Positions 40,234 to 57,972 are shown, numbered from the stretch's first letter. The stretch: 64,000 nucleotides of DNA from Methanobacteriota archaeon (GCA_017885655.1 JAFNFQ010000004.1:89373-153372); one strand, 5' to 3'. Program-made: numbers and translations. The notes: a model not told the origin generated them from the sequence alone.

Positions 40234-40704
40234 CTACTTCAGATTTATCCTGTAGAAGCTCCAGTCAGTCTTTTCCGCGTTGTTCTTCTCGTAGAATCTC
40301 TGGGCGGACTTGTTCCAGTCGAGGACGGTGAACTCGATTCTCCCGCAACCCTCTTTCTTGGCTCTTTCCACGCAGAAGTCGAACATGGCCTGACCTATGC
40401 CCTGTCTCCGGTACTCCTCAAGCACGAAGATGTCCTCAAGGTAAAGAGTTGGCAGGGCGCGGAAGCTGGAGTAGGTGAAATAGACGATGACGTAGGCAAC
40501 GTACTTGGAGTCAAGTCTGCCCAGGTATGCCTCGTATCTAGGGTTCTTCGAGAGCGCGTCTCGCCTCAGTCTTCTCTTGGCGGCTTTGTCCGGAGGTGCG
40601 AGGTTTTCGAACTTCGCGAGTCCCTCGATGAGAAGGAGGAGGTGATGGAAGTTGTCCCCCGTGACTCGCTCGATGATCAGTCCACTGTCAGCATGCTTGC
40701 TCAT
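40234..40704 (-). CDS. GNAT-family N-acetyltransferase
   Basis: Acetyl-CoA motif RRQGIGQAMFDFCVERAKKEG. TATA-like ATATTTACG about 30 nt upstream of the ATG (leaderless arrangement). Confidence 0.85.
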   Translation of the reverse strand: MSKHADSGLIIERVTGDNFHHLLLLIEGLAKFENLAPPDKAAKRRLRRDALSKNPRYEAYLGRLDSKYVAYVIVYFTYSSFRALPTLYLEDIFVLEEYRRQGIGQAMFDFCVERAKKEGCGRIEFTVLDWNKSAQRFYEKNNAEKTDWSFYRINLK

Positions 40705-40767
40705 GGCGGCGGTAAGATGAAGCGTCGGCGTAAATATCCTTCCGCGGAACGGTTTCGGAGCGGAATC
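40624..40767. repeat. Direct repeat copy 1 (about 142 bp): promoter plus first 29 codons of the GNAT gene
   Basis: Aligns by eye with 41576-41719 at high identity, including the ATATTTACG TATA-like box and the MSKHADSGL coding start. Confidence 0.7.
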
Positions 40768-40988
40768 GATAATCTGCGCGTTTGTATCCCCGATCAGACT
40801 GGACCCGCCATCACATCATCGGAGGGAGATCCACGAGAGATATCGATATCGGCAGAACTACCAGCAATCCGGTATCTAGCTCTCCGGCGAAGAGACTGGG
40901 CATCCGCTCTTTAAGATTCCTTCATTCCAATATTAGAGCACGCAGGAGTCATGGGTTCTTCACTCCACGATGAATCGCGCGAGCGCGG

Positions 40989-41513
40989 CTATGGCGTATC
41001 CCACGCCGCAATCTGCATTATCGTTGAATCGTCCACGAGCTCAAACCTCCAGTCATGGGAACCCGACATTCCGTAGACAAAGAAAGAATCGCCAGTGCTC
41101 AACCTCCCGTCGCTGTCCTCGTCGTGGACGATTGCCTTGACTGTCAGGCCGAAGCTGAATGGGGTGTTAAATCTCAGACTTTGATAATCCGGGAGTAGGG
41201 GACTGAAATCCGCGTACATGCGCATTCGTATGTGGGAGACTTCCCCAAAGCGTTCCGTCACGCATTTCGCCTTCCAGCTAGCCGTGAGGTTGTCCGAGAG
41301 TCCACCGATGTCGATTTCGGTGAAGTACATCGGAGCCCCATCTACCCACGGACCGCAATATTCGGGGGTATGGGCGGTCAGCGTGTACCAGACAATGACA
41401 GCTGTCACCAAGAGGACGGCAATTACGAAGGAGGCAACCGCGTACAGGAATCTGCGAGATTTCGATTTCCTCTCGTTTCCATTGGCATCCTTTCGCTCGG
41501 GCTGCGCCGTCAT
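40989..41513 (-). CDS. Membrane-anchored extracytoplasmic protein (174 aa), inserted between the two GNAT-promoter repeats
   Basis: N-terminal TM anchor (FLYAVASFVIAVLLVTAVIVWY), GGAG 6 nt upstream. ATGA overlap with the truncated GNAT leader ORF. Confidence 0.55.
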   Translation of the reverse strand: MTAQPERKDANGNERKSKSRRFLYAVASFVIAVLLVTAVIVWYTLTAHTPEYCGPWVDGAPMYFTEIDIGGLSDNLTASWKAKCVTERFGEVSHIRMRMYADFSPLLPDYQSLRFNTPFSFGLTVKAIVHDEDSDGRLSTGDSFFVYGMSGSHDWRFELVDDSTIMQIAAWDTP

Positions 41514-41656
41514 CCGTCGCTCCCTGCACCGAGAGCATGCTTATTACCCTTAAAGGTTCCTGGATTCGGGAGGCTCTCGACAAGAAGGAGGAATTCCTGG
41601 AAGTTGTCTCCTTTGACTCGCTCGATGGTCAGTCCACTGTCAGCATGCTTACTCAT
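41510..41656 (-). pseudogene. Truncated duplicate of the GNAT gene 5' end (29 conserved codons + 19 novel codons), acting as a leader ORF coupled to the 40989-41513 gene
   Basis: MSKHADSGLTIERVKGDNFQEFLLLVESL matches MSKHADSGLIIERVTGDNFHHLLLLIEGL of the full gene, then diverges and stops overlapping the next ATG. Confidence 0.6.
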
Positions 41657-41719
41657 GGCGGCGGCGAGATGAAACGTGGGCGTAAATATTCTTCCGCGGA
41701 AAGCCTTCAACAGGGAATC
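41576..41719. repeat. Direct repeat copy 2 of the GNAT promoter/5' segment
   Basis: See copy 1. Copy 2 ends where the Fic gene (41718-42656) ends. Confidence 0.7.
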
Positions 41720-42656
41720 AGCGGGCTTGCGTCCCCGGCTGGACCGTTTCCGCGTACCGCGCTAGTGCATGCTTGCTTGAATACCATGTGCGGCCGATCT
41801 TGACGGCCTCGAGCACTCCCTGCCGCGCGCGCAACGAGAGGTATTCCTGAGAATACGCGCTGCCCCGGGCAAGCTGTCTCAGGGGGACGAGAGCACGTTC
41901 GGGATCCACCGCGGACAGGAACACCGCCAGCCCCTCGTCAACAGCATGCAGTACGAAGCCCGAGAGCGGTCCGTACCGGCCCCGGTCCGCCTCATCGAGA
42001 CACTTGTAGTACCGCCGCCTGTCCTCCACGCGGAGGACGACAGGCGCGTATCCTGCGCTGATGAGCACCAGGTTGGCGGCCAGCCGCGCGGTCCTCCCGT
42101 TCCCGTCGAGGAACGGATGGATCGATGCGAGGCGGTGATGCAGGCAGATGCTGCGGAGGACCGGCTCGCGGATGGCGGGAAGTCCCTTGAACAGCTGGTC
42201 GAGTCGCCGGACGATCTCGGATGGGGGCGGCGGGAGGTGCGCCGAACCGCCGATCCGGACCTGCTGCCGTCTGTACTCCCCTGGAGACTCCAGCGTCCCC
42301 TTCGTGACCATTTCGTGGAGCTTCTTGAGGGGGGCATGGTCGAACCGCAGGCCAGGACGGCCACTCTCCCATATCCAGTCGAAGGCCTCCGCGTTGTTCG
42401 TGGCCTCGAGGTGTTCGCGGACGCTCTTCCCCCCGATCGTGATCCCCTGCTCGATGATGAGGCGGGTCTCCTTGAGGCTGAGCGTGTTCCCCTCTATGGC
42501 GTTGCTGTTGTAGGTGTGGTAGAGGCGCAGCTGCTGCCGCAATCGTTCCAGGACGTCCCGGGGAAGGGGCCTGCGGGACCGCAGCTCCTTGAGATTCGAC
42601 TGGACCCGCCGCCATGTCACAGGAGGAAGGTCGGAGACGGATATCGGTATCGGCAT
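41718..42656 (-). CDS. Fic/Doc-family protein
   Basis: Canonical Fic motif HPFLDGNGRTARL. Confidence 0.85.
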   Translation of the reverse strand: MPIPISVSDLPPVTWRRVQSNLKELRSRRPLPRDVLERLRQQLRLYHTYNSNAIEGNTLSLKETRLIIEQGITIGGKSVREHLEATNNAEAFDWIWESGRPGLRFDHAPLKKLHEMVTKGTLESPGEYRRQQVRIGGSAHLPPPPSEIVRRLDQLFKGLPAIREPVLRSICLHHRLASIHPFLDGNGRTARLAANLVLISAGYAPVVLRVEDRRRYYKCLDEADRGRYGPLSGFVLHAVDEGLAVFLSAVDPERALVPLRQLARGSAYSQEYLSLRARQGVLEAVKIGRTWYSSKHALARYAETVQPGTQAR

Positions 42657-42800
42657 GTTTCCGTGTTATCCGATAGCCTTGCGGTTATATATCGGTATCG
42701 GCAAGATTGACAGTAATCCGATATCTGTCTCTCCATGAAGGTGATTCGAGACTTGACGCCCCTTGCACAAGCCCGGAAGATTCAGAGCACCCAGATGCCC

Positions 42801-43493: not shown

Positions 43494-43571
43494 TCTGTAA
43501 CAGGTTAATGAAAGAGGCAGTTCTTGGCACTTTCTGTTAATCCGTCACAGACTGCACCTAGGGCGGAATCG

Positions 43572-43620
43572 TCATCGGAACCTGTATCCCTCCGGGAAGC
43601 ATCTCAGCAGCTTCCCCGGC
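43572..43620. repeat. Copy a of a repeated gene-3' segment (X-type end, shortest copy)
   Basis: Shares TCA.CGGAACCTGTATC..TCCGGGA.GCAT.T.AGCAGCTTCCCC with copy b. The minus-strand reading ends ...GKLLRCFPEGYRFR* versus ...GKLLKCIPDRYRFQ* in copy b. Confidence 0.55.
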
Positions 43621-43741
43621 AGCCTGCCGTCAAGCTCCTCGATGTCGCGGTCCACGGACCCAATCACGCGGATGCCATACCTCTTGAGGATCTCCCGCTT
43701 CGTCTTCAGTCATCTCACGAAGCGTGCACGATCGAGTTCAT

Positions 43742-44125
43742 TCAGATTAACAGAGCGGCTTGCTCGACCGTCCCGCCGCAGAGCTCGACCGATTCGCTGT
43801 CACTCTGCGGGCCCAATACCCCGCCTGTCGAATCCGCGGACACTTGGTGCGTCTGACAGGAGTCGACGAGCCATGTTATATCGAACGTGTACTGGATGGA
43901 CCCCAAGGGCGAGAGAGTCCCGCTGTACTTCAACTGACCGTCCAGAAACACCCGGTATTCCACATCATTCACCAGATGCGTGCTCGACACGGTCACAACG
44001 ATCTTGCCGCTCTTCGAGATCATGAAGAACCCGATTAGTGCGACAACCACCACGATAACGACCACGATGATAACACCAGTGTGCTTCTTGGGCTGTGCTT
44101 GTTGCGTCGGCTGAGGCTGCGCCAT
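43742..44125 (-). CDS. Small membrane-anchored extracytoplasmic protein (127 aa)
   Basis: N-terminal MAQPQPTQQAQPKKHTGVIIVVVIVVVVALIGFFMI TM anchor. Lies between repeat copies a and b. Confidence 0.45.
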   Translation of the reverse strand: MAQPQPTQQAQPKKHTGVIIVVVIVVVVALIGFFMISKSGKIVVTVSSTHLVNDVEYRVFLDGQLKYSGTLSPLGSIQYTFDITWLVDSCQTHQVSADSTGGVLGPQSDSESVELCGGTVEQAALLI

Positions 44126-44259
44126 CTATCTACGCTCCTTGCGCTGAAGATGTCTCGACAAGCTTTAAATGTTTCCAGACACCACACGTCACCGGGTATT
44201 CGGGGTCGCGGATCCTGCGCAATCGATGCAGGCGATCCTTGGACGCCCCTCGCCCGGAT

Positions 44260-44427
44260 TCACTGGAACCTGTATCTATCCGGGATGCATTTGAGCAGCT
44301 TCCCCTCCGAGCCCTCGTGGACGCACGTCTCCTTCAGGTCGCATCCGGGGCAGAACCGTGCGCGGATCTCGCTCTCCTCCAGCCCCAGGAGGCCCGCCTG
44401 GTCGAACAGTTCGTGGAGGAGCTTCAG
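44260..44427. repeat. Copy b of the repeated gene-3' segment (about 165 bp)
   Basis: 129 bp (44299-44427) align with 49156-49284 of gene 49088-49492 at roughly 90% identity by eye. Minus-strand reading LKLLHELFDQAGLLGLEESEIRARFCPGCDLKETCVHEGSEGKLL matches LKLLHDMFDQAGLLGLDESEIRVRFCPECDLRATCVHEGSEGRL. In frame after the 44497-44973 gene stop. Confidence 0.7.
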
Positions 44428-44496
44428 GTTCCATCCCCCGGGATCAGGCGGTCCCCGGCGGGGTCGGTGCTCCTCTCTCGGTCATCGTCCGGCAGC

Positions 44497-44973
44497 TCAC
44501 CCTTCTCCGAGAAACCTCAGGTCCTCGAGGTCCTGCTTCCTCCGTAGCTTCTTGAGGGTCTCCCTGTGGTCATCGAGCGATATCACGGGGATCCTGACGC
44601 CCTTGTATGAGAACGTCTGTCTTCTCTTCCAGAGGTCGTCGAAAGACCCCAGGACGGGACTGGTGATGATGTCCACCTCCCTGTCGTTCGTGAACGTGGT
44701 GTGCCCCATCCCCCGTATGTCCTTCACGACGTCCGTGTCGGGGACGAGCCCCAGGCTCTCCAGCGCCTTCACGGTTGCGGACACGTTCTCCGGCCCCGGG
44801 TGGATCATGATGTCGACGTCGACCGTCGTGCGGGGGACGCCGTGGAGGACGCCGGCGAGGCCTCCCGCCAGGAGGTACCTGACCTTATTCCTATTCAGCG
44901 TCCTCATTATCACCTGAAGCTCTAGCAATCCTCGCCTCCCTTCTGAACCCCTCAACCTCCTCAGCGAGCGCAA
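44497..44973 (-). CDS. Nucleotidyltransferase-fold protein (AbiEii/DUF-type)
   Basis: RYLLAGGLAGVLHGVPRTTVDVDIMI: hG[GS] plus D.D pattern of the Pol-beta-like nucleotidyltransferase fold. Confidence 0.55.
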   Translation of the reverse strand: MRSLRRLRGSEGRRGLLELQVIMRTLNRNKVRYLLAGGLAGVLHGVPRTTVDVDIMIHPGPENVSATVKALESLGLVPDTDVVKDIRGMGHTTFTNDREVDIITSPVLGSFDDLWKRRQTFSYKGVRIPVISLDDHRETLKKLRRKQDLEDLRFLGEG

Positions 44974-45852
44974 GTCGCTCCTGAGGTGTCAGGCTCAGGA
45001 ACCACCTGCCGAGCCTCTCCCGCGCCGGGTCTTTCTCTGGCATCGGGCCTCAATCCCTCTCGTTGGTATATCTCCCTTTCGCGGCGGCCGGTCGATATGT
45101 TCGGCAGATTGCCGTCCGGACGGAAGCCGTCGCTCCGGGTTGAACCCCTGTCAGCCCCGCACTACGAGACTTTGTCTTCCAGGACCATCGCGACGATTCC
45201 GTCCCAGCATCGGCGACCAGCCCCTGGCGGGCCTTCTCCAACCACCCGCCATCGATGAGGCTGATGGACCTGGTTTTGTCCATCAGGAAGCCTCCATTAG
45301 GAGAGAATCAACAGAATCGATCAGCCGTATTGAGGCCTCGGCGACCCAGAGGATCCCGAGGCGTGTAATCGATGTGGTTGTGGGTTCCGCGATTCCGGAA
45401 CCGTGTAATTCGAAATCAAATGGGTTCATGGGTATTTAACGACATTGGACTCGGTGATCAAGGTCGTTCGTTGGTGTAGCTTGCCGATAGGTTGCTCGGC
45501 GGGATTCCGGTGATCACGAGTCGAATCATCGGGGCATGGACGTTGCGGGCGCGACATTCCCCAGCGTCTGAATCTGCTTCTGGGACGCAGCCTCAACGAG
45601 GCAATGTTCCAGGAGATGCCCGCTACGGATGAACACAGGATATTTAAGGTGGGATGAGATGTCTTTTCGAGAATCCGGGCAGAAGGTAAAAGTAGGCGCC
45701 CGGGCCATAGACGACGCATCTGGAACTGCATACGGTTTGGGGGCTAGGGGTAAGAGCGGGAACCGGACGATGGACGCCGTCCAAGAAGGACAGAGAGGCA
45801 AAGGATACGAGCTCTTGGGAGCGAATGGTTTAACGGGACGTGCTGCGGGGGT

Positions 45853-46320
45853 TTGCCTTTGAAGAAAGTAAAGCTGACGATACGAGAGAAGATCCAGGAC
45901 GCTGGTTTCAGGCTCTGCCTCATGAAGGAGGCGCAGAAGCAGTTCATCACGCGCTTCTTCGCCGAGAACCTCCAGGACAAGAAGACCGTCGAGGTCCTGG
46001 TGGGCGGCCGCCGCAAGGACGTCGATCGATACATCCAGACCGTGAAGGGAATGCGCACGGGGAATCCCAAGGGCTTCGATGTGGAAACACAGGACTATGA
46101 CGGGAACATAATGGACATCAGGGATTTCGCCGGCTATCTGACGGCGGAACAGCTGGTGAGAGGCGTGGGGGGAATGACGGGGCTTGTCTCGAGGATCGAC
46201 ACGCTCGACAAGACGCTCGTCGTTCGCCTTTCCGGGCTTGAGACCACATTGAAGGGAATCGGCCCTGACATCGCAAGAGCCATACTGGAGGGGTTCGAGC
46301 GCCTCGAGAAGCGGGGTTAG
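45853..46320 (+). CDS. Hypothetical protein (155 aa; TTG start, first ATG at Met24)
   Basis: Single long ORF in an otherwise ORF-poor stretch. The N-terminal region is loosely acylphosphatase-like (FR...A...G..N..D..VEVLV.G); not confidently assigned. Confidence 0.35.
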   Translation: MPLKKVKLTIREKIQDAGFRLCLMKEAQKQFITRFFAENLQDKKTVEVLVGGRRKDVDRYIQTVKGMRTGNPKGFDVETQDYDGNIMDIRDFAGYLTAEQLVRGVGGMTGLVSRIDTLDKTLVVRLSGLETTLKGIGPDIARAILEGFERLEKRG

Positions 46321-46562
46321 ACCCCGGTCAGAGGGCGGCGCGTCTCAGGATATCATCCAGAGATCGTGGTGGCGCGAGACCAAGCCAGCCGGCCGATTGC
46401 CAGTTTCCCCCATGGTTCTCATGGACCGTCCATGGCAGATTTTCTTCATCCTGAGTTGGAGATTGGGCCGGATTCGCCGTCCCTGCATTCGCTTTGGATT
46501 GGCACTCATCTTCCTAATATCCTTCCTGACTCGAGGGCTCTGACAGATCACTGCGCGATGCC

Positions 46563-46700
46563 CTAGGCACGTGACTTCGCACCGCCTCTGAGAATGACGG
46601 TCGCAACTCCATCCAGGCACAGCGGCGACAGCTTCCCCTCCGAGCCCTCATGGATGCACGTCTCTTTCAGGTCGCATCCGGGGCAGAACTGCACATGGAG
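46563..46700. repeat. Copy c of the repeated gene-3' segment (about 140 bp, Y-type end)
   Basis: Minus-strand reading VQFCPGCDLKETCIHEGSEGKLSPLCLDGVATVILRGGAKSRA* versus RFCPECDLRATCVHEGSEGRLSPLCLDGVATAILRANFESSI* of the full gene. Similarity continues about 25 bp past the stop codon. Confidence 0.7.
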
Positions 46701-46751
46701 CCCGACCGATTTAAATTGACGCGGTGTGCCGATGCTCGGAGACGACCGCGA

Positions 46752-47921
46752 CTAATCGAGGATTATATCGAGATAGGGCCGATAGGCGAAAACTCGATTG
46801 CGCCTGTTCCCCGTCTGTTCATTCAAAAGCGCGAGCCCCTCCAGTTCGACCGCGAGTTCGTTCGCGCTCGGGAACGACAGCCCTGTGACCCTCTGCATAT
46901 CGTTCACCGAGACCATCGGGTGCTGGTACATGAACTCGATGAGAATGAGTGCGCCTCCCGCCCTTCGTCCCATTGCATTCTGGATCAACCGCCTATGCTC
47001 CTCACGCAGCTGGATGATTCTCTTCGCTGTCTCGGTCGCCTGCCTGGACACCTCGTCGACGCCTTTCAGGAAGAACCTCAGCCAGCCCTCCCAGTCCCCC
47101 TCGTCCCTGACCGCCTGCAGCGTGTCGTAGTACGAAGACCTGTTCTGGCGGAAGTAATGTGAAAGGTAGAGCAGGGGCCGCTCGAGATAGCCCTCCGCCG
47201 TCAAGAGGAAGGTGATGAGCAGACGCCCCATCCTCCCGTTGCCGTCCAAGAACGGATGGATCGTCTCGAACTGGCTGTGCGCGAGCCCCACCTTGACCAG
47301 CGGCGGCAAGGATCTCTCTGTCAGGAGAAAGCGCTCCAGATCGTCGAGGGCCTTTCTCATCTCGGGTACAGCAGGCGGGACGAAGGCTGCATCTTCAATC
47401 CCCCTCTCCGAGGGGCCGATCCAGTTCTGCACCGACCTCAGCTCGCCAGGACTATGGCTGCTGCCCCTGCCCCTGCTGAGCAGGCGAGCATGTATCTCCT
47501 GAACGAGCGCGACAGACAGCTCTCTCCCCCTCGCGATCTGACCCAGACCGTGGTTCATCGCGTCGATGTAGTTGGACACATCGACGACATCGCGAGGGTG
47601 ACCGCGCAGGCGCGCGCCCGCCTCGTACTCGAGGAGGTCGATCAGCGATGATTGGGTGCCCTCGATCTGGCTGGACAGTACGGCCTCTTTCCTGATATAC
47701 ATGAAGACGAAGAGGTCCGGGTTCGGCAGGGTCTCCGTCGCCCCGCTGAGCCTCCCAAGGTTCCTGTCCGCTTGCGAGAGGATGCTCAGCATCGAGCTGT
47801 CGAAGTCGATCGGAGGATTGGGCGGGAGCGGTTTGGGGACATATGTGCGATAGCCTTCCGGTTGCATCGCATATTGACCTGCACGCGCGGTCGTTTTTAC
47901 CATATTTAAGCCAGCCTTCAC
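46752..47921 (-). CDS. Fic-family protein with C-terminal winged-helix region
   Basis: Fic motif HPFLDGNGRMGRLL; 389 aa with the C-terminal wHTH typical of long Fic proteins. Confidence 0.85.
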   Translation of the reverse strand: MKAGLNMVKTTARAGQYAMQPEGYRTYVPKPLPPNPPIDFDSSMLSILSQADRNLGRLSGATETLPNPDLFVFMYIRKEAVLSSQIEGTQSSLIDLLEYEAGARLRGHPRDVVDVSNYIDAMNHGLGQIARGRELSVALVQEIHARLLSRGRGSSHSPGELRSVQNWIGPSERGIEDAAFVPPAVPEMRKALDDLERFLLTERSLPPLVKVGLAHSQFETIHPFLDGNGRMGRLLITFLLTAEGYLERPLLYLSHYFRQNRSSYYDTLQAVRDEGDWEGWLRFFLKGVDEVSRQATETAKRIIQLREEHRRLIQNAMGRRAGGALILIEFMYQHPMVSVNDMQRVTGLSFPSANELAVELEGLALLNEQTGNRRNRVFAYRPYLDIILD

Positions 47922-48119
47922 AATTCAGAAGCTTTAACAGTTAATTAATTTTCTATTGACATTATTGAATAACGAGCTGCATCTATAAGTACATTCCTTC
48001 CAAAGCTAGCTGCTGCGAAAATGAAAGACCTTGAACGATTCTTTCGAAATCGGGCAAGGGAATCGCAGGCGCGGGATTCCTCAGCCTGAATCGCGCGGGT
48101 CGTTCCGGATCTTGATGTC

Positions 48120-48199
48120 TCACTCCGACTTCGCTCTCAGGATGACTGTGGCGATCCCGTCCAGGCACAGCGGCGACAGCTGCCCCTCCGAGCCCTCGC
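48120..48199. repeat. Copy d of the repeated gene-3' segment (shortest Y-type copy, about 80 bp)
   Basis: GTCCAGGCACAGCGGCGACAGCTGCCCCTCCGAGCCCTCG is shared with copies c and e. Minus-strand reading ...GSEGQLSPLCLDGIATVILRAKSE*. Confidence 0.6.
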
Positions 48200-48345
48200 G
48201 GAGGCGTAATTCTCCTGCGGCACTCCGGGCGGAACCGCACACGGGATTTACTCTGACGGAATTCTCCTATCCTAGGCCGATTGCGTTATGAAAGTACACA
48301 GAATCATTATGGCCGCGAATGCGTTGCCATTCGCGTGGATGAGAC

Positions 48346-48861
48346 ATGACTGCAGAGCGCACGATGCTGTTCATGGACGGATCGAATCTTTTCCACTCCA
48401 CCAAGGACTTCGACCCTGGATTGAAAATCGATCTCGTGAAACTTCGAGATTTCTTGGCGAAAGACAGGCTCCTGATACGCGCATACTACTATGGCTCGAT
48501 ACCGATTGGGAATCCGGAGAGAATCGCGAAACAGACCGCCTTTCATCACTTGCTCGAGTACAGCGGTTTCAAGACGGTGATTTTGCCGCTGCGCAGGCGA
48601 GGGGCGGAGTACGTGGAGAAAGGTGTCGACGTCTCCCTTGTTACCGACATGTTGGCGCTTGGGTTCGATCGAGCTTACGAGTGCGGCATTCTCGTGGCTG
48701 GCGATGCCGACTATGTCAGGGCGATTCAAGAGGTAGAACGCAAGGGCATCAGGATTCACGTCGCATTCTACGATCTCCCCTTATGTGCGGGCGACCTGAG
48801 ACGGGCTGCACATTCGTTCGTCTCGCTGGATAAGCATCTTGAGGAATTCAGGAAGTCGTGA
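48346..48861 (+). CDS. NYN-domain (LabA-like) protein, paralog 1
   Basis: MLFMDGSNLF ... YYYGS ... EKGVDVSLVTDML ... LVAGDADYVRAIQEV, matching the NYN/LabA core. The likely true start is the ATG at 48364. Confidence 0.8.
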   Translation: MTAERTMLFMDGSNLFHSTKDFDPGLKIDLVKLRDFLAKDRLLIRAYYYGSIPIGNPERIAKQTAFHHLLEYSGFKTVILPLRRRGAEYVEKGVDVSLVTDMLALGFDRAYECGILVAGDADYVRAIQEVERKGIRIHVAFYDLPLCAGDLRRAAHSFVSLDKHLEEFRKS

Positions 48862-48879
48862 AATCAAAAATGCATTGAG

Positions 48880-48975
48880 GAAGCTTTTTTGCCAGACGAC
48901 CGAGCCAAATGATGTGCGCTTGTCGTTATGGTTTTTGGCGGTCGTCTGGAGAGTTATTTTCGCATTCTTAATTCA
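48880..48975. repeat. Conserved hairpin element (copy 1) just downstream of NYN paralog 1
   Basis: TTTTTT-GCCAGACGACCG-(loop with CTTGTCGT)-CGGTCGTCTGG-AGAGTTATTTTC. Resembles 60420-60515 in the arms, the loop motif and the T-rich flanks. Confidence 0.55.
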
Positions 48976-49087
48976 CGTGCTTGCTTAAAACTCTTTCGCT
49001 TGGAGTCAGCCTCTTGATAGCCTGATCTGGCAAGCGTCCGTGTGAGCGATTGATGGATATTTCCAAGAAGGTTCCACGCGCAAAAGC

Positions 49088-49492
49088 CTAGATGGACGAT
49101 TCGAAGTTTGCGCGGAGTATCGCGGTCGCAACACCGTCCAGGCACAGCGGCGACAGCCTCCCCTCCGAGCCCTCGTGGACGCACGTCGCCCTCAGGTCGC
49201 ATTCGGGGCAGAACCGCACGCGGATCTCGCTCTCATCCAGCCCCAGGAGGCCCGCCTGGTCGAACATGTCGTGGAGGAGCTTCAGGTACTTGCCCTCGGC
49301 TATGCGCGGCACGTCGTACTTCGCCGCCTTCAGTCCCCCGCGCGCGGTCCAGTACTCGTAGAGGCGCCGCGCGCCCTTGGAGCTGTTGCACAAGGGGCCG
49401 ACCCGGAAGGCATTCCTCCCGCCACTAGTCAATAAATGGCGATTGCATTCCGTGCAGCTTCGCCACGAATTCTTCAGTCTTCTTAAAGTCAC
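49088..49492 (-). CDS. Hypothetical small Cys-pair protein (134 aa if GTG at 49492); the full-length gene whose 3' end recurs in copies a-d
   Basis: SCTECNRH ... FCPECDLRATCVHEG Cys pairs. 3' region 49088-49284 is the repeat unit. The GTG start overlaps the upstream RNase-III-like gene by 68 nt, so the true start may be an internal TTG/GTG/ATG. Confidence 0.5.
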   Translation of the reverse strand: MTLRRLKNSWRSCTECNRHLLTSGGRNAFRVGPLCNSSKGARRLYEYWTARGGLKAAKYDVPRIAEGKYLKLLHDMFDQAGLLGLDESEIRVRFCPECDLRATCVHEGSEGRLSPLCLDGVATAILRANFESSI

Positions 49493-49937
49493 GATCAGTA
49501 TCTAAGTAAACGGCTCCTATGAGCGCCTCTAGCGTCTCGGCCGGAATTCTCGGTTGCACATCGAGGCTCTTATCTCTCTCCGACCCTCCCAGCCGAATGA
49601 GACCTCCGACTCCTTTTTCCAGTGCGAGTTTTGCTAACGTCGGTTTCTCTTCCATCTTTCTCCTTTCCACGGTAATTTTGTCCCCTGTCTCGAAGCCGGA
49701 GTGATATAGGATATCGGTTAGTGCCGCTTTGAGCAAAGCATCGCCCAAGGTCGCGAGCGCTGTCTGATCCTCACATTTCGGTTGCTGCAACGCCCGATCC
49801 TCGACAAACTTCTGACGGGTCAATGCACGGATGAGAATATCTGTGTTTCCGAATCGATGGCCGAGAATTCCTTCCTCTTCGTTCGCTTTGATGATCTTGT
49901 CCATTGGGTCTTCGAGTTTCAAGCAATCACCTCGCAC
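49425..49937 (-). CDS. RNase III-domain-like protein (170 aa, single catalytic-domain type)
   Basis: LATLGDALLKAALTDILY and ETLEALIGAVYLD resemble the RNase III signature (ERLEFLGDA ... EALIGAIYLD). Confidence 0.55.
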   Translation of the reverse strand: MRGDCLKLEDPMDKIIKANEEEGILGHRFGNTDILIRALTRQKFVEDRALQQPKCEDQTALATLGDALLKAALTDILYHSGFETGDKITVERRKMEEKPTLAKLALEKGVGGLIRLGGSERDKSLDVQPRIPAETLEALIGAVYLDTDRDFKKTEEFVAKLHGMQSPFID

Positions 49938-50150
49938 ATATGTCTGTTCATGCTAATCCTGTCGTGTTCCATTGCTATTCCCCTCGCCGACATGCAAATG
50001 CATGGGGTCCTATTTCAAAGATGGCTTGCGCATGATGGTGACATCCCGCCCACCGCTAGATCGTCCTGCTGAGTTAAGTGTCAATTTGAGAATGTCAATC
50101 GCGACCTTTATCAAACTCTATATACGCGACACTCACATTCGGTTAATCGA

Positions 50151-50633
50151 TTGCGCATGGCAGGAGTTACGTGCCTGACCTTGTCGGGGGACAACTACTG
50201 GGCGGTCGTCAACAGCGTCTGGTCTCTTCTGTATGAGGGGCTTTCAGTCCCTAGCCACCTCATTCTCATAACTAACGGCCGCCACAAAGATGTCGCGAAG
50301 AGGGCTTCCGATTCGTTGCAGACACTGCTTTCCTTCTATGGGATGACCAGCGTCCCCGAAATCATCGTCGTCCCCGAATATGACCTGCGCCAGGTACACG
50401 ACAAGCTGTTTGAAATCATGCAGAAGGCCAAGTCGGAGGGAGAAGTCGCTCTCAATATCACTCCGGCTAGAAAGTCGCTTGCCACAGTCGCCATGGTCGC
50501 CGCATGGGAAACTAAGGTGAATAGAATCCATTACGTTTACCTCAGAAGTCTCAAGGACGCCGATTGTCCCTATCCCCTCATAGCAAGGGATCTCCATGAA
50601 TTGCTCGACTTGAAGGAGCTCCGCCCGAAATGA
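50151..50633 (+). CDS. CARF-like Rossmann-fold sensor domain protein (degenerate ligand-site motif)
   Basis: VTCLTLSGD ... HLILITNG ... VALNITPARKSLATVAMVAAWE ... IHYVYL parallels the Csa3-like protein in this window (VHIATVGE ... LHINITGGTNIMASAALIAG ... VYYI), but with NITPA in place of NITGG. TATA CTATATAC at 50118-50125; likely ATG at 50157. Confidence 0.45.
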   Translation: MRMAGVTCLTLSGDNYWAVVNSVWSLLYEGLSVPSHLILITNGRHKDVAKRASDSLQTLLSFYGMTSVPEIIVVPEYDLRQVHDKLFEIMQKAKSEGEVALNITPARKSLATVAMVAAWETKVNRIHYVYLRSLKDADCPYPLIARDLHELLDLKELRPK

Positions 50634-51718
50634 GCACATGGTGCGCGCCCAGCAGATTCCTGATGGCGCTGGTCAACAGGATTTTTGGATATGGACGCGG
50701 GGTAATCACAATCAGATATCCACTCTATGGCACGGAGCTCTTCTCATTCGATTCATCATTCAAAGTCAAGAGCGCCTCATCCAAGCACAAGTTTTACGAA
50801 GCGCGAAAGGCTGCAACCTCATGGAGCAAGGAGCTGAGTCACGAAGCGCCCGAGTGGAACCAAGTGATGGACTCGTTCGTATCCTCTGGGACATTGAAGC
50901 CTCAGAACCTCGCCGATTTCGCTGTATGGGCCAGGAAGACACTGGAGGATAGGAGACGTCCGGAATTGGCAGCTCGCCCATTCTTCCTGGCAATCGATAC
51001 GAATGTAGCTTACAATCGCCTGTTCACGCGGCATTTTCCAATCGATGGCCCAAGCGGCGTCGTTAGAGCTCCAGATTTCAGATTCCTGTTATGCGATGTT
51101 GTCCGTCGAGAAGTCGACGAACAGATTAAACGAAAATATCGCGGGGAACTGAACCAAATATTCACCCATCCTGAACAGGAATCGATTCTCAAGGAAATCG
51201 GAGGACGCAATGTCCTCGTGGCGCGAAGGGCCAAGCTCGCTCAGAATGAAATCGACTACCTTGACAAAACGCTCAACGCCTTGACTGTTCCTTGCACGGA
51301 GTTCCCCTCAGACAAGGAAGATCGAGATATTCTCATCGCAAAGACCTACGGAGCATTCAGCCGGGACAGAAACGTGGACATAGCGCTGCTGACGATGGAC
51401 CAGAACATGGTGGACCACGCGAAGAATGCTCAGATTATGTCCTTCTCGTTAAGGGTCCCTGGAGCTTCGGAACTGGAGAAGGTCGAACTGCACTACTCCC
51501 TGTGGCATCTGCTCCACGATCTGGCCGTTGCGCTAGGCGTGATTGACATAGAGCCCTTCGGGACGCGGGTGTACGGCGAGTGGGCCGGAAAAACCACGTC
51601 TGACTACGGCGCAGAGAGAGTGAAGATAGTTCTCGACGACAAAGCTCCAATAGCGAATGAAGTGGTCAGGGACTTCCGGATTTGCGCGAAAGTCTTGGGA
51701 GTGTCAATTAGCGGCTGA
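50630..51718 (+). CDS. PIN-domain nuclease with N- and C-terminal extensions
   Basis: ATGA overlap with the CARF-like gene. PIN core PFFLAIDTNVAYN ... DVVRREVDEQ ... LLTMDQNMVDHA. Confidence 0.65.
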   Translation: MSTWCAPSRFLMALVNRIFGYGRGVITIRYPLYGTELFSFDSSFKVKSASSKHKFYEARKAATSWSKELSHEAPEWNQVMDSFVSSGTLKPQNLADFAVWARKTLEDRRRPELAARPFFLAIDTNVAYNRLFTRHFPIDGPSGVVRAPDFRFLLCDVVRREVDEQIKRKYRGELNQIFTHPEQESILKEIGGRNVLVARRAKLAQNEIDYLDKTLNALTVPCTEFPSDKEDRDILIAKTYGAFSRDRNVDIALLTMDQNMVDHAKNAQIMSFSLRVPGASELEKVELHYSLWHLLHDLAVALGVIDIEPFGTRVYGEWAGKTTSDYGAERVKIVLDDKAPIANEVVRDFRICAKVLGVSISG

Positions 51719-53230
51719 CGGTTTGCCATCGTGGGATTCAGCGACTATGTCGGCGCCTAGATCCTTCGCTCTCTGTGTGACACGTTTAGCATCATCAGGT
51801 GACTTGGCCAGGATGTATTTCTTCCCTTTGTGTTGGAATAGATCTACATCTTCTTCTGACTTCAACCTCTGGGCACCCTTTGGAAGAGTCGGAGGGAGCA
51901 CTGTCCAACGGTACACGATCTCGTGGGGCAATGATTGCACCTCCCCCTCATCGGGAATAGGGAATTCCTTGGGCTCGGTCTCCGCCATCGAGTCCAACGA
52001 TTTCGCTTGAATTGTGCCAAGGTCTTTCTCGATTGTCCCTCCTACGATTGCCGGCGACAGTCCCCTGCCGTCCCAGAGGAGGCATTCGCCGGTAACCTGG
52101 CCGCGGGGCAGGTTCTCCGTCAGCCTGAAGTGGAATGTCTTGGGCCATGACTCCATCAGGGTTCGAAGACTCTCGCACTGGGCGGGGGTGAGTTGGACAC
52201 CGGTCTCGAACCCGGTATCTAATCCGCGTGATTCTACATTGGCCGTCATCACGATGCCACGCATCTTGCCGCTCATCTTGCCTAACATGGCTTTCGCGTG
52301 CAGGTACCTGTGAGCATATACATCCGCGCCTCCGCGCATCAGATTCACGGCAGCCTCCATGTTCTTGACGCGGGGTCGCATGAAAATGTGCGTTCTCAGC
52401 CCACCCTTGACCCTCTTCAGCAGGTTTTGTGTGACTTCGTGTTTCATATCGAGATTATAGATTGACATCCAGAAATCATCCTGTGCACTCTCCACGAAGT
52501 CCAACAGAGATTGCCTGAGGGTTTGCATGTTCTGCGTCGTCACGGGCAGGTCAGACGGCAACACGGACTTTATCTCCATCCTACCGGACTTGCTGACCGG
52601 TTCTAGGCGTCCAGCTCGGAACAGCTCGTGTTCGCTCTCCTGCCAGAATCCGATTCTGAACTGTTCGAAAAGCGCTTTCGCAAGATCACCTTTCAAGGGG
52701 ATAACCACCTCAACGTTCCGTGTCAAGGCTTCTGTGGCAAGATTTGCGGTGGAAAGGAAGGCTGCCGTCTTGCCAGGACTCCGCGGATCGACGATCACAA
52801 ATTTCGAATGGAAGTGCCCTGCTGTGCGGACCAATACTCTGCCCGCCAATGCGTCCAATGTCGCCTTATGCTCCTCAACCTGCCTCTTAGCGAATTCCGA
52901 TTCCTGAGAAAGGTCTTTGAGCAGATGTTGCTCCGACATCGTCAGCACGTAACAGCGCACACCTCTTTTCGACGCCTCCAGGAGCGCGTTGCCGATATTC
53001 TGATCGTAGAACAGGAAAGAGCAAAGGCATACCGTTTCCATAGAAGAGCGTATGGCTTCGACGATCATCGAACGGGCGAACCCAGTTTCCTCGGTGGGCC
53101 ATATGGTGGCGTCGCGCCTCGGCGGCACTGCGGGCGATCCCATCTGAGGCGCCAAAGGAATCCATGCAATCCCTAGAGGATTTTCCCTGAAAGGCTTGAT
53201 CATCTTCTTCTCTAGCGCCCAAGTGCTCAT
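51704..53230 (-). CDS. Phospholipase-D-family nuclease (two HKD motifs), MkoB-like
   Basis: HFHSKFVIVD and HAKAMLGK HxK motifs. ATG at 53230 gives an ATGA overlap with the upstream gene; the track ORF from 53278 would overlap it by 52 nt. Confidence 0.8.
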   Translation of the reverse strand: MSTWALEKKMIKPFRENPLGIAWIPLAPQMGSPAVPPRRDATIWPTEETGFARSMIVEAIRSSMETVCLCSFLFYDQNIGNALLEASKRGVRCYVLTMSEQHLLKDLSQESEFAKRQVEEHKATLDALAGRVLVRTAGHFHSKFVIVDPRSPGKTAAFLSTANLATEALTRNVEVVIPLKGDLAKALFEQFRIGFWQESEHELFRAGRLEPVSKSGRMEIKSVLPSDLPVTTQNMQTLRQSLLDFVESAQDDFWMSIYNLDMKHEVTQNLLKRVKGGLRTHIFMRPRVKNMEAAVNLMRGGADVYAHRYLHAKAMLGKMSGKMRGIVMTANVESRGLDTGFETGVQLTPAQCESLRTLMESWPKTFHFRLTENLPRGQVTGECLLWDGRGLSPAIVGGTIEKDLGTIQAKSLDSMAETEPKEFPIPDEGEVQSLPHEIVYRWTVLPPTLPKGAQRLKSEEDVDLFQHKGKKYILAKSPDDAKRVTQRAKDLGADIVAESHDGKPSAAN

Positions 53231-57002: not shown

Positions 57003-57901
57003 CCAATTTCCCTTCCCCTTTCCCTCAACACTCCGAAGATCTCCTTGTCATCAGCGATGACCTTCCCCCCGGGACGCCATTGGTAATGGCCGCCTCGAAC
57101 AAGAAACTTTCGCCTATCCCATCCCGCTCTCTGAATAGCATCTTGCACTCCGACCTCGAGAATCGACGGTCCGAACCCATAACTGCCACCCGTATTCTGG
57201 AAGAATCGACCGAGTGGGTCCATCATGAGGTATGAGTCTGTCATGGCCCGATTATCCTCTTTGACTGGATTGAGGCATTCATGGCGAGCGACGAAGGCTT
57301 CGAACTGCCCATTCATAGTGGCCAAGTCTGCGAAGCTGTCATCGTTCTCTCCTTTTATTGGGAGCATTTGAAAGACCTTCCACCGCCGAGGTTTCAGTTC
57401 GGCAACGAAGGATCGCATGTCTTCTCCCCAATTCATTGAGGTGACAACAGTGTTGACTTTGAATCGTATGCCGAATTCATGAATCCGCTTTGCCACTTCG
57501 CGAACAAGTGCGACATGATTTCCATCACCCCGCCCGAGAGCTTTTTCCACTTGCTCTGATGCGCTGTCAACGCTCAGAGCGATCCAGTCGACTAGGTCTG
57601 CAATCGTGCTGAGATAGGTCTTATTCAGCCGCGTCCCGTTCGATATGATCATCGTTGTCAGGCCAGCTTCTTTTGAAGCCTGAAGTACCTCTCGGAGGTG
57701 GGAACACAATGTCGGCTCCCCTCCCGCCAAGGTCAACTTTTCCGTCCCCGCTTTGCGGAGAATCTCCGGAATCTTCACCGCCTGATTCATCGAAAGCGGG
57801 GTACAGATTCCCTTGAAATGGGCGAAGCAGAATCTGCAGCGATAGTTGCACCATGGCCATATATGCCAATTCACCGAAACCGGTTCCACGCCCCCATTCA
57901 T
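56996..57901 (-). CDS. Prokaryotic viperin (pVip) radical-SAM enzyme
   Basis: Residue-level correspondence with animal viperin: PVSVNWHIWPWCNYRCRFCF vs [20 protein letters not shown]; AGGEP vs SGGEPF; ISNGTRL vs VSNGSLI; FKVNTVV vs FKINSVI; RWKVFQMLPIKGEN vs RWKVFQCLLIEGEN; MTDSYLMMD vs MKDSYLILD; ILEVGVQDAIQRAGWDRRKFLVRGGHYQW vs [29 protein letters not shown]. Confidence 0.9.
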   Translation of the reverse strand: MNGGVEPVSVNWHIWPWCNYRCRFCFAHFKGICTPLSMNQAVKIPEILRKAGTEKLTLAGGEPTLCSHLREVLQASKEAGLTTMIISNGTRLNKTYLSTIADLVDWIALSVDSASEQVEKALGRGDGNHVALVREVAKRIHEFGIRFKVNTVVTSMNWGEDMRSFVAELKPRRWKVFQMLPIKGENDDSFADLATMNGQFEAFVARHECLNPVKEDNRAMTDSYLMMDPLGRFFQNTGGSYGFGPSILEVGVQDAIQRAGWDRRKFLVRGGHYQWRPGGKVIADDKEIFGVLRERGREIGC

Positions 57902-57946
57902 CTAGATTGTCAGGTATTGCAGACACCTATAGCGGTTCTCTTTTAT

Positions 57947-57967: not shown

Positions 57968-57972
57968 GACGG

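What the first reader, a model, noticed from the sequence alone, without database searches (positions are those of the whole stretch)
43565..49492. Array of at least five partial copies of one gene's 3' end interleaved with toxin-like cargo (cassette array / serial integration scars)
The 3' roughly 200 bp of gene 49088-49492 (minus strand) recurs in truncated form at 48120-48199, 46563-46700, 44260-44427 and 43572-43620. Every copy retains the stop codon and a little 3' flank, and each is cut off at a different upstream point. The copies are mosaic: an X-type end in copies a and b, a Y-type end in c, d and e, switching at a shared CAGCTTCCCC junction. Between successive copies sit different cargo genes: NYN, Fic-wHTH, nucleotidyltransferase plus a 155-aa ORF, and a small TM protein. 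The pattern resembles tandem site-specific integrations that each regenerate the target gene's 3' end, or an integron/shufflon-like cassette system. No integrase is present in the window.
Basis: seen in the sequence. Interest (0 to 1): 0.85.

Follow-up and report, generated by a model that had tools for sequence, protein, structure and literature searches.

The report
Stacked HNH-gene relics between defence genes
In an uncultured Thermoplasmata archaeon, a stretch of anti-virus-type genes is interleaved with six decayed pieces of one conserved HNH nuclease gene that share an almost invariant 39-base core where related strains have recombined, which makes it a recombination hotspot of a broadly known kind rather than a new cassette machine.

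Summary
The repeat array is real, far beyond chance, and reproduced at 100% identity in five independent assemblies. The reading needs correction.

- **The "parent" gene is not intact.** The 134-aa ORF (49088-49492) is only codons 89-196 of a ~195-aa archaeal HNH endonuclease. Its catalytic N-terminal part is missing.
- **Copy count.** The window holds six HNH-derived relics: a, b, c, d and a newly found f, with d internally deleted. Copy "e" is not HNH. It repeats a foreign tail that is fused to d.
- **Shared core.** All HNH copies share a 39-bp core (about 95% identical between copies, against 55-70% in the flanks).
- **Strain comparison.** Related contigs carry the same cargo genes with different left and right arms joined at this core. 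One has an intact HNH gene running straight into the SoFic cassette. Every strain variant can be derived from a window-like order by a single core-to-core deletion.
- **Upstream ends.** The 5' ends of the copies are variable and illegitimate.
- **What was not found.** No integrase appears among the large ORFs Pfam-scanned or in the precomputed annotation, across about 73 kb here and 40 kb of related loci. There is no attC-like fold and there are no inverted copies.

Best reading: a defence-gene hotspot built and eroded by recombination at the HNH 3' end. Host homologous or illegitimate recombination (0.45) is somewhat favoured over an unseen integrase (0.32). Interest is moderate.

The parts
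49088..49421 (-). Copy a: HNH endonuclease codons 89-196, with a 'NYN-type' replacement tail and its own stop. The listed ORF runs on to 49492 only as read-through. The 39-bp core is at 49134-49172.
   Evidence: 85% identical to P0001 residues 91-196, with no N-terminal part anywhere in the window; homology to the intact L002 gene starts at gene nt 267; tail type and core.
49425..49937 (-). RNase III-like gene (170 aa) whose stop abuts the truncation point of copy a. It marks the edge of the lower-GC defence island to the right.
   Evidence: PF14622/PF00636; sequence; GC 0.51-0.55 from 48 kb on.
48346..48861 (+). NYN-domain nuclease gene. It is the cargo of the ~940-bp unit between core a and core b.
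   Evidence: PF01936, 4e-26; PADLOC NYN/HEC-09. The same unit is found in L003, L004 and L099.
48052..48266 (-). Copy b. A decayed left arm (codons ~152-172, 2-nt deletion) is followed by the core (48157-48195), the native HNH tail with its stop (48120), and ~70 nt of native 3' flank.
   Evidence: To the right of the core it matches the intact genes of L002, L036 and L094. The junction into the Fic unit is the same as in L094.
46752..47921 (-). SoFic-like Fic/DOC gene (389 aa), cargo.
   Evidence: Fic_N + Fic; PADLOC SoFic, 7e-115.
46563..46700 (-). Copy c: HNH codons ~155-196 with a 'c-type' tail and flank. Core at 46609-46647.
   Evidence: The c-type tail recurs in L004, L036 (twice) and L093.
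45853..46320 (+). 155-aa ORF with a weak acylphosphatase-like N-terminus. Cargo of unknown role.
   Evidence: Also present in L004 (85%) and L085.
45225..45565 (-). Continuation of the native HNH 3' flank, plus the first ~20 codons of a 206-aa NYN-like gene that is intact in L036. About 34 nt of the flank is duplicated with the copy-b flank, so the Fic-c-155aa segment is bracketed by an imperfect direct repeat.
45162..45224 (-). Relic f: a degenerate right part of the core plus the 'f-type' HNH tail (DGIVAMVLEDKVS*). It is fused to the NYN-206 gene stub.
   Evidence: The intact core plus f tail is seen in L003, L090 and L092.
44497..44973 (-). 158-aa nucleotidyltransferase-like gene, cargo.
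   Evidence: sub-threshold Pfam matches to NTP_transf_5 and Aminoglyc_resit, 17-18 bits against cut-offs of 21-31. Always follows the f tail in the window, L003, L090 and L092.
44260..44474 (-). Copy d: HNH codons ~70-82, an internal deletion, then codons 135-178. It breaks inside the core after GGGGAAGCTG and is fused to a foreign 'Y' tail (LLKCIPDRYRFQ*).
   Evidence: L003 keeps the HNH sequence past the break.
43742..44125 (-). 127-aa predicted membrane protein, cargo between the two Y tails.
   Evidence: ORF; no Pfam match.
43572..43709 (-). Element e: the 3' remnant of an unidentified gene 'Y'. Its last 46 nt are 85% identical to the tail of d. It is not HNH-derived.

Best explanation
This is the variable side of a defence-gene hotspot anchored on a conserved chromosomal HNH endonuclease gene of an uncultured Thermoplasmata archaeon.

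**Structure.** The units run tail - cargo - left arm, or equivalently HNH 3' fragment plus downstream cargo. They are strung together, and each joint is a relic of the HNH 3' end.

**Exchange point.** The relics keep an almost invariant 39-bp core, GGGCTCGGAGGGGAAGCTGTCGCCGCTGTGCCTGGAYGG, which encodes EGSEGKLSPLCLDG. Reciprocal exchange across this core joins any left arm to any right arm, so it deletes whole cassettes. In reverse, as a Campbell-type event with an excised circle or a strain variant, it could add them.

**Proposed enzyme (inferred).** I think the enzyme is the host's own homologous-recombination machinery, combined with illegitimate (microhomology) joining at the upstream end. 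That is homology-facilitated illegitimate recombination between strains that carry different cargo behind HNH. I do not think it is a dedicated integrase.

**State in this window.** The head copy has itself been decapitated at codon 89 by the neighbouring island, so the locus is a stack of dead relics.

**Shown:** the relics, the core, the arm combinations and the strain polymorphism.
**Inferred:** the enzyme, and the direction of events (gain versus loss).
For: 1. The family is a ~195-aa HNH endonuclease, and all window copies are 5'-truncated.
2. Core pairwise identity is 95%, against 70% for the 66 nt upstream and 55% for the 45 nt downstream (the pairwise set includes loci L090-L099, which were retrieved by an exact 24-nt match inside the core).
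3. Arms combine freely around the core: native-L + native-R (L002, L094), native-L + NYN-R (copy a), b-L + native-R (window copy b), b-L + c-R (L004), b-L + f-R (L003), c-L + f-R (L090, L092).
4. L094 has an intact HNH gene running into the same Fic junction as window copy b. Copies a and b are therefore that gene split across the core by the 940-bp NYN unit.
5. The same head copy has four different 5' ends in four assemblies, each abutting unrelated DNA. Other copies start at codons 61, 70, 112, 118, 148-157.
6. Other sequences show the same partial-copy / cargo / copy pattern:
   - the GNAT 5' end, 41565-41701 versus 40613-40749, 86%;
   - the Y tails of d and e;
   - 34 nt of HNH flank around the Fic-c-155aa segment.
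   An HNH-core-specific integrase would not explain these.
7. The d/Y junction lies at a GGGGAAGCTG microhomology that is present natively in Y.
8. No integrase domain was found among the ORFs Pfam-scanned in the window, L004 and L036, or in the precomputed annotation of L001.
9. The phenomenon is lineage-specific. 78 of 83 HNH loci from other archaea have one intact copy, and in 21 Bathyarchaeia loci it lies in a fixed position next to aIF5B.
Against: - All legitimate exchanges map to one 39-bp block. Its length fits archaeal att sites (29-69 bp in crenarchaea, PMC6563490), so a trans-acting site-specific recombinase fits equally well.
- The rest of the genome was not available to search for one.
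- No insertion event could be polarised. Every strain difference can be read as a deletion, so how the array grew is inferred, not seen.
- No circular or 'reverse-arm' junction was found. The one exact-pattern scan for it returned 0 hits.
- High core conservation could partly be inherited from strong protein-level constraint (L178-G185 are nearly invariant in the family).
Confidence: 0.45

Rival explanations
1. Tandem accretion by a site-specific integrase acting in trans. Successive integrative elements inserted into an att site (the 39-bp core) in the HNH 3' end. Each supplied a replacement tail and displaced the older 3' end. The elements then decayed to integrase-less 'cis-mobilizable' remnants of 0.6-2.5 kb.
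For: - One common identity block is shared by all copies, and all legitimate exchanges occur there.
- Copy a has the layout host 5' part + core + element tail. Copy b has the layout element arm + core + native tail and flank. This is the classical attL/attR picture when compared with the empty site in L094 and L002.
- Precedents exist. Archaeal elements integrate into 3'-distal parts of protein genes, supply a new stop and form tandem arrays (PMC6563490). Dehalococcoides has more than a dozen ssrA 3' repeats, with 15 islands lacking integration genes (PMC3146451). The CIME accretion model covers decayed remnants (PMC5704250).
Against: - No integrase was found among the ORFs Pfam-scanned or in the precomputed annotation, across ~73 kb around the array and 2 x 20 kb of related loci.
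- The 'P arms' are themselves HNH-derived and of very different lengths (codons 35 to 157). The same unit has different 5' ends in different strains.
- Partial duplications of unrelated sequences (GNAT, Y, HNH flank) show the same architecture.
- No attP-type junction was found in metagenome contigs, and the core does not occur in viral contigs.
Confidence: 0.32
2. Passive debris. The lineage carried several paralogous or element-borne HNH genes. The fragments are leftovers of deletions and segmental duplications in a fast-evolving island, and they have no role in moving the cargo.
For: - N-terminal and internal HNH pieces also occur in relatives: L004 codons 38-58, 61-129 and 62-81; L036 codons 1-65.
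- A second, divergent HNH stub lies upstream in L093.
- In L036 the gene is simply split by a 2.7-kb insertion carrying a Kelch/FG-GAP protein gene.
- The relics carry frameshifts and stops (copy b; L003 copy 5).
Against: - Six relics lie within 6 kb here and five within 5.5 kb in L003, almost all retaining the same 39-bp block.
- Four different strain arrangements are each explained by an exchange exactly at that block. Random decay would not give this.
Confidence: 0.13
3. A dedicated integron- or shufflon-like cassette system.
For: - The array consists of short, mostly single-gene cassettes separated by a recurring sequence.
- Integrons have been reported in archaeal MAGs (PMC9668308).
Against: - No IntI-type integrase was found.
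- The repeats are gene fragments without a stable single-strand fold (DNA fold z-scores from -0.7 to +1.9 on both strands).
- There was no Rfam or other structured-element match.
- Cargo lies on both strands.
- All repeats are direct, so there is no inversion switch.
Confidence: 0.03
4. The fragments are functional mini-genes: small four-cysteine zinc-binding peptides that act as partners or regulators of each neighbouring defence gene.
For: - Copy c is an intact 43-codon ORF that keeps the family's four invariant cysteines (C160, C163, C169, C182).
- Gene callers annotated 74-aa and 90-aa versions in L003.
Against: - Copy b has a frameshift, L003 copy 5 an in-frame stop, and copy d an internal deletion with a foreign tail.
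- The start points vary between strains for the same unit.
Confidence: 0.04
5. Assembly artefact: collapsed or chimeric strain variants.
For: Short-read contigs of this region tend to break at the repeats.
Against: - Five independent assemblies are 100% identical across copies a, b and c.
- Related but non-identical arrays occur in four other contigs.
Confidence: 0.01

Closest known systems
Tandem accretion of integrative elements and decayed 'cis-mobilizable elements' at the 3' end of a target gene. Examples are the Dehalococcoides ssrA genomic islands and the ICESt1/ICESt3-related elements in the Streptococcus thermophilus fda gene (PMC3146451, PMC5704250).
   Same: - A series of direct repeats of one gene's 3' end, with strain-specific cargo between them.
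- Many units lack integration genes.
- Strains differ by whole units.
- Exchange occurs at a short identity block.
   Different: - The repeats here are long, variable-length gene fragments (about 60-330 bp) that include sequence upstream of the exchange block.
- The units are tiny (0.6-2.5 kb, one or two genes).
- No integrase was seen in any of the loci examined.
- The head gene in this window is itself truncated.
Archaeal integrated elements that target the 3'-distal part of protein-coding genes and supply a new stop codon, including tandem integrations (Thaumarchaeota survey, PMC6563490).
   Same: - An archaeal host and a protein-gene target.
- Replacement tails with their own stop codons: NYN-type, c-type and f-type.
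- Reuse of the same site.
   Different: - Those elements are multigene and usually encode an integrase or casposase, with att or target-site duplications of 8-69 bp.
- Here the cargo is single defence genes and no recombinase was found.
Campbell-type (single-crossover) integration and homology-facilitated illegitimate recombination of foreign DNA. This comparison rests on general genetics knowledge, not on a test made here.
   Same: - A partial copy of the anchor gene flanks the inserted DNA.
- One junction is homologous and the other is at microhomology, with variable position.
- Direct repeats then allow precise loss.
   Different: - These processes are usually described for laboratory constructs or single events.
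- They are not usually described as a standing multi-cassette array conserved across strains.
Integron cassette arrays, including sedentary chromosomal integrons and the reported archaeal integrons (PMC9668308).
   Same: An array of short, mostly single-gene cassettes with a recurring boundary sequence and strain-to-strain cassette turnover.
   Different: - No IntI, no attI, and no attC hairpin.
- The boundary is a fragment of a protein-coding gene.
- Cassette orientation is mixed.

Membership tests
HNH endonuclease family (Pfam PF01844 / PF14279, ~195-aa archaeal group), applied to the ORF 49088-49492 | Full-length protein with the N-terminal WQYAKII region and the catalytic C-x2-C...DH...N...C-x2-C (HNH) motif | tested here: not met
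   Only residues 91-196 of the family align. Pfam finds no domain in the 134-aa ORF. No N-terminal part exists in the window or in the 9 kb beyond it.
HNH endonuclease family (Pfam PF01844 / PF14279, ~195-aa archaeal group), applied to the ORF 49088-49492 | Sequence homology of the retained part to family members | tested here: met
   E = 4e-53 and 85% identity to P0001; 423 homologues.
Tandem site-specific integration / CIME accretion array | Direct repeats of the target gene's 3' end bounding each unit | tested here: met
   Copies a, b, c, f and d are all direct repeats on the minus strand.
Tandem site-specific integration / CIME accretion array | A common identity segment (att core) at which occupied and empty sites differ | tested here: met
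   A 39-bp core is shared by all copies. L094 and L002 (empty site) versus window copies a + b (occupied site) switch exactly at its two edges.
Tandem site-specific integration / CIME accretion array | A cognate site-specific recombinase in at least one unit or elsewhere in the genome | tested here: inconclusive
   None was found among the larger ORFs of the window, L001, L004 and L036. Not every ORF was scanned, and several have no Pfam match. The complete genome is not available.
Tandem site-specific integration / CIME accretion array | Element-side arm (P) of fixed extent, unrelated to the target gene upstream of the crossover | tested here: not met
   The left arms are HNH-derived and start anywhere from codon 35 to codon 157. 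They differ between strains for the same unit.
Tandem site-specific integration / CIME accretion array | Intact target gene at the head of the array | tested here: not met
   The head copy a is truncated at codon 89 in this window. The feature is met in relatives L093 and L094.
Integron | IntI integrase with attI next to the array | tested here: not met
   No integrase domain was found among the ORFs scanned in the window or the related loci.
Integron | attC sites: imperfect inverted repeats that fold as single-stranded hairpins | tested here: not met
   DNA folds of copies a, b and c on both strands give z-scores from -0.7 to +1.9.
Integron | Cassettes mostly co-oriented | tested here: not met
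   The NYN gene and the 155-aa ORF lie on the opposite strand from the other cargo.
Shufflon / invertible cassette switch | Inverted repeats flanking invertible segments, plus a recombinase | tested here: not met
   All HNH copies are in direct orientation. Only chance-level inverted repeats were found.
Polymorphic-toxin orphan arrays (Rhs / CDI type) | Orphan modules consisting of a conserved pre-toxin segment, a variable C-terminal toxin domain and an immunity gene | tested here: not met
   The variable tails after the core are only 13-24 codons long. The nuclease motif lies upstream and is absent from the fragments.

The most novel reading that the evidence does not exclude
An integrase-independent, integron-like capture system in archaea. 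In this reading, a 39-bp segment inside a conserved HNH nuclease gene is maintained as a dedicated recombination site. It would be used to acquire, stack and shuffle single-gene anti-virus cassettes. The reaction would be catalysed by an unrecognised recombinase or triggered by the HNH nuclease itself cutting at or near its own 3' end.
Probability: 0.1. Interest if true: 0.85.

Novelty: new variant of a known kind. Interest (0 to 1): 0.45.

Why it matters
How defence islands are assembled and turned over is much less documented in archaea than in bacteria. This locus, together with four to ten related contigs, gives a natural series of strain variants. In them, single defence genes (SoFic-like, NYN, nucleotidyltransferase-like and others) are lost, and possibly gained, at a defined 39-bp sequence inside a conserved gene, with no recognisable integrase nearby.

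If host recombination alone does this, it is a simple, general route to cassette-like defence arrays. If an unseen recombinase does it, the core is a ready-made att site to test. Either outcome can be checked with PCR for circles or with long-read population data.

It also carries an annotation warning. The "134-aa CxxC protein", and the 74-aa and 90-aa ORFs that gene callers annotated on the related contig L003, are gene relics.

Tried and rejected
- **attP / circle junction.** I scanned metagenome contigs for b-left arm - core - NYN-type tail and found 0 hits. This is an exact-match search, so the negative is weak.
- **Core in viral contigs.** 0 hits. The HNH family has one distant hit in viral contigs and only remote matches in the plasmid and phage collections. 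There is therefore no sign that the gene travels on known elements.
- **Origin of the Y tail.** tblastn against all fetched loci and one search of the 5.8-billion-protein collection found only a 31-aa self hit. The source gene is unknown.
- **Integrase search.** Pfam scans of 60 ORFs in all, most of them the larger ORFs of the window, L004 and L036, plus the precomputed annotation of L001, found none. Several ORFs have no Pfam match at all.
- **Structured elements.** attC-like or other structured-element ideas were rejected.
- **Extending the sequence.** Reaching beyond the window to find the intact head gene gave only 9 kb more (L001), with no HNH in it.
- **Same site in other archaea.** I tested whether Bathyarchaeia use the same site, looking in the gaps between HNH and aIF5B. 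No significant duplications were found.
- **Flanking repeats of the upstream island.** I looked for direct repeats flanking the lower-GC island at 49-73 kb and found none.
- **Exact-sequence look-up of the Fic protein.** It failed, probably because of a different start codon call.

Full report
**1. The observation**

A repeat search of 42-51 kb and a BLASTN of the 49050-49520 segment against the whole window confirm direct-repeat copies on the minus strand:

| Copy | Coordinates | Identity | E-value |
|---|---|---|---|
| d | 44296-44429 | 93% | 7e-54 |
| c | 46590-46694 | 88% | 1e-32 |
| b | 48157-48244 | 80% | 5e-17 |
| e versus d tail | 43572-43617 versus 44260-44305 | 85-88% | - |

Nothing comparable occurs elsewhere in the 64 kb.

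The array is not an assembly artefact. Contigs from five independent assemblies are 100% identical to window 45510-49166, 47932-52500, 47940-49334, 48122-49166 and 47940-48977. Together they span copies c, b and a with their cargo.

**2. What the repeated gene is**

The 134-aa ORF has no Pfam domain. It does have 423 homologues, and almost all of the 120 best hits listed are ~195-aa archaeal HNH endonucleases (PF01844 + PF14279). They align only to its residues ~29-134.

Comparison with full-length members shows three things:
- The window ORF lacks the first ~90 residues, including the catalytic region.
- Its first ~28 codons are read-through that overlaps the stop of an RNase III-like gene.

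No N-terminal HNH sequence exists in the window or in 9 kb beyond its right end. So the supposed parent gene is itself a relic (codons 89-196).

The family is chromosomal and conserved. Of 83 loci examined (80 of them from a scan of one genome per archaeal species), 78 have a single intact copy. In 21 Bathyarchaeia loci it lies tail-to-tail with translation factor aIF5B, with no duplicated ends. It is essentially absent from viral, plasmid and phage collections.

**3. Full inventory in the window**

Reading the minus strand from 49.9 kb downwards:

| Element | Coordinates | Description |
|---|---|---|
| RNase III-like gene | 49425-49937 | Abuts copy a |
| Copy a | 49088-49421 | Codons 89-196, "NYN-type" tail |
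| NYN nuclease gene | 48346-48861 | Cargo, opposite strand |
| Copy b | 48052-48266 | Frameshifted left arm, then native tail and 70 nt of native flank |
| SoFic-like Fic gene | 46752-47921 | Cargo; PADLOC SoFic E = 7e-115 |
| Copy c | 46563-46700 | Codons ~155-196, "c-type" tail |
| 155-aa ORF | 45853-46320 | Cargo, opposite strand |
| Native flank + NYN-206 stub | 45225-45565 | Rest of the native HNH flank plus the first ~20 codons of a 206-aa NYN-like gene that is intact in L036 |
| Nucleotidyltransferase-like gene | 44497-44973 | Cargo, 158 aa |
| Copy d | 44260-44474 | Codons ~70-82, internal deletion, codons 135-178, then a foreign Y tail |
| Membrane-protein gene | 43742-44125 | Cargo, 127 aa |
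| Element e | 43572-43709 | 3' remnant of unknown gene Y |

Element e shares only GGGGAAGCTG(CT) with HNH. It is a second copy of the Y tail, and its source gene could not be identified.

**4. The 39-bp core and the combinatorial arms**

I aligned all copies from the window and from the related contigs L002, L003, L004 and L036 (all from the same Thermoplasmata lineage, 82-98% identical in shared parts). This shows a block, GGGCTCGGAGGGGAAGCTGTCGCCGCTGTGCCTGGAYGG, with 0-4 mismatches in every copy.

| Segment | Mean pairwise identity |
|---|---|
| 39-bp core | 95% |
| 66 nt upstream | 70% |
| 45 nt downstream | 55% |

(the pairwise set also includes loci L090-L099, which were retrieved by an exact 24-nt match inside the core, so the core figure is partly favoured by selection.)

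To the right of the core there are four tail-plus-flank types: native, NYN-type, c-type and f-type. To the left there are several left arms: native-like, b-type, c-type and others. They occur in many combinations:

| Left arm | Right arm | Where seen |
|---|---|---|
| native | native | L002, L094, L036 |
| native | NYN-type | Window copy a, L003, L004, L099 |
| b | native | Window copy b |
| b | c-type | L004 |
| b | f-type | L003 |
| c | c-type | Window copy c |
| c | f-type | L090, L092 |

The clearest case is L094. There an intact HNH gene, with native tail and flank, runs into the Fic unit through exactly the junction seen after window copy b. Window copies a and b are therefore that gene split by a 940-bp NYN unit. 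The switches fall precisely at the left edge (…CCGCGA|GGGCTCGG) and the right edge (CTGGAYGG|TGTT) of the core.

L093 shows an intact HNH gene, then a two-gene cargo, then a fragment covering codons 153-193.

All four variant orders (L094, L004, L003, L090/L092) can be derived from a window-like order by one deletion between two cores. No "reverse" arm combination that would prove insertion or a circle was seen, and a pattern scan for one returned nothing.

**5. The other ends are not site-specific**

The NYN-linked head copy begins at a different codon in each of four assemblies, each time against unrelated DNA:

| Assembly | First codon of the head copy |
|---|---|
| L004 | 35 |
| Window | 89 |
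| L003 | 125 |
| L099 | 130 |

Other copies begin at codons 61, 70, 112, 118 and 148-157. Relatives also contain N-terminal and internal pieces. In L036 the gene is simply split by a 2.7-kb insertion encoding a Kelch/FG-GAP protein.

The d/Y fusion lies at a 10-12-nt microhomology that Y has natively.

The same partial-copy / cargo / copy architecture is seen for unrelated sequences nearby:
- the 5' end and upstream flank of a GNAT gene (41565-41701 versus 40613-40749, 86%, around a 174-aa membrane-protein gene);
- a Fic 5' stub (42598-42655 versus 40797-40854);
- the two Y tails;
- 34 nt of native HNH flank bracketing the Fic-c-155aa segment.

**6. Search for a recombinase or a structured site**

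- Pfam scans of 60 ORFs found no integrase or transposase domain. They covered the left 19 kb of the window (core genes: Rrp4, SHMT, ThiF, ThiI, UppS, RIO, PPDK, HerA), the 27-57 kb stretch, and L004 and L036. The precomputed annotation of L001 also shows none.
- Single-strand DNA folds of the copies are no more stable than shuffled sequence.
- Rfam finds nothing in 40-53 kb.
- All copies are direct.

**7. Interpretation**

*Shown:*
- a stack of relics of one conserved gene's 3' end between defence-type genes;
- a near-invariant core at which strains have recombined;
- variable, illegitimate upstream junctions;
- whole-cassette polymorphism between strains.

*Inferred:*
- How the array grew. 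I favour homology-guided events: a single crossover, or one homologous plus one illegitimate end. They would occur between strains that carry different cargo behind HNH and would be carried out by host recombination functions.
- Reasons for this preference: the arms are gene-derived and of variable length, unrelated sequences show the same pattern, and no integrase is present (confidence 0.45).
- A trans-acting site-specific integrase with later decay of the elements (CIME-type accretion) remains a strong rival (0.32). All legitimate exchanges fall in one 39-bp block of typical att length, and the a/b versus L094 comparison looks like attL/attR versus attB. There are close precedents (PMC6563490, PMC3146451, PMC5704250).
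- Lower-ranked alternatives are passive debris (0.13), functional mini-genes (0.04), an integron or shufflon (0.03) and an assembly artefact (0.01).

**8. Comparison with known systems and novelty**

It works like tandem accretion arrays at the 3' end of a target gene. It meets their repeat and core criteria.

It fails or leaves open three others. The element arm is not fixed. The head gene is not intact in this window. The recombinase could not be found, though it could lie elsewhere in the genome.

It is not an integron, a shufflon or a polymorphic-toxin orphan array, because defining features were tested and not met.

I rate it a new variant of a known kind. The differences are an archaeal target (a conserved HNH gene), micro-cassettes of single defence genes, long variable gene-fragment repeats, and no integrase in sight.

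Interest is moderate (0.45). A specialist would find it a neat, testable example of defence-island turnover in uncultured archaea rather than a surprise. The most novel reading still open is a dedicated, integrase-independent capture site. I give it a probability of about 0.1.

Noticed in passing
window 40613-40749 and 41565-41701 (minus strand): The first ~92 nt of a GNAT acetyltransferase gene (40234-40704), plus 45 nt upstream of it, are duplicated at 86% identity on the far side of a 174-aa membrane-protein gene (40989-41513). This is the same partial-copy / cargo / copy pattern as the HNH array, but with a gene's 5' end.
   Followed up: partly
window 40797-40854 and 42598-42655: A 58-nt relic (76% identical) of the 5' end of the 312-aa Fic gene (41718-42656) lies just upstream of the GNAT gene.
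   Followed up: no
window 42641-42675 and 42689-42723: Two tandem 35-nt repeats (80% identical) with palindromic ends (ATATCGGTATCGG...CCGATA) sit immediately upstream of the 312-aa Fic gene. They may be an operator.
   Followed up: no
window 48000-64000 and L001 (to ~73.3 kb in window coordinates): A lower-GC stretch (0.51-0.55 versus 0.58-0.62) is packed with defence-type genes. These include a CARF-PIN-like 362-aa protein, a DrmC-like PLD nuclease, a Mokosh MkoA-like helicase (882 aa) with a second 1117-aa paralogue, two radical-SAM proteins, two more NYN genes, a second RNase III-like gene and an AAA ATPase. No flanking repeats were found.
   Followed up: partly
window 48881-48961 and 60420-60503: The 3' flanks of two different NYN genes share an ~85-nt segment at 72% identity.
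   Followed up: no
window 35929-38811: There is a very GC-rich block (0.68) with a 960-aa ORF that has no Pfam match. It lies next to large beta-helix and surface-repeat proteins, and a 2532-aa ORF lies at 19038-26636.
   Followed up: no
L036 7255-10000: In the related MAG, the otherwise native HNH gene is split between codons 65 and 71 by a 2746-bp insertion. The insertion carries only a 780-aa secreted Kelch/FG-GAP repeat protein gene and no transposase.
   Followed up: partly
L093 2962-3246 and L004 8000-8062, 16200-16375, 18363-18421: Relatives contain extra N-terminal and internal HNH pieces, including a divergent one (54% identity). The gene is therefore fragmented along its whole length in this lineage, not only at the 3' end.
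   Followed up: partly
L024, L032, L039 (Bathyarchaeia), between HNH and aIF5B: In most Bathyarchaeia loci the HNH and aIF5B genes are 10-20 nt apart. A few have 1.0-1.8 kb of extra DNA there, without detectable duplicated HNH ends.
   Followed up: partly
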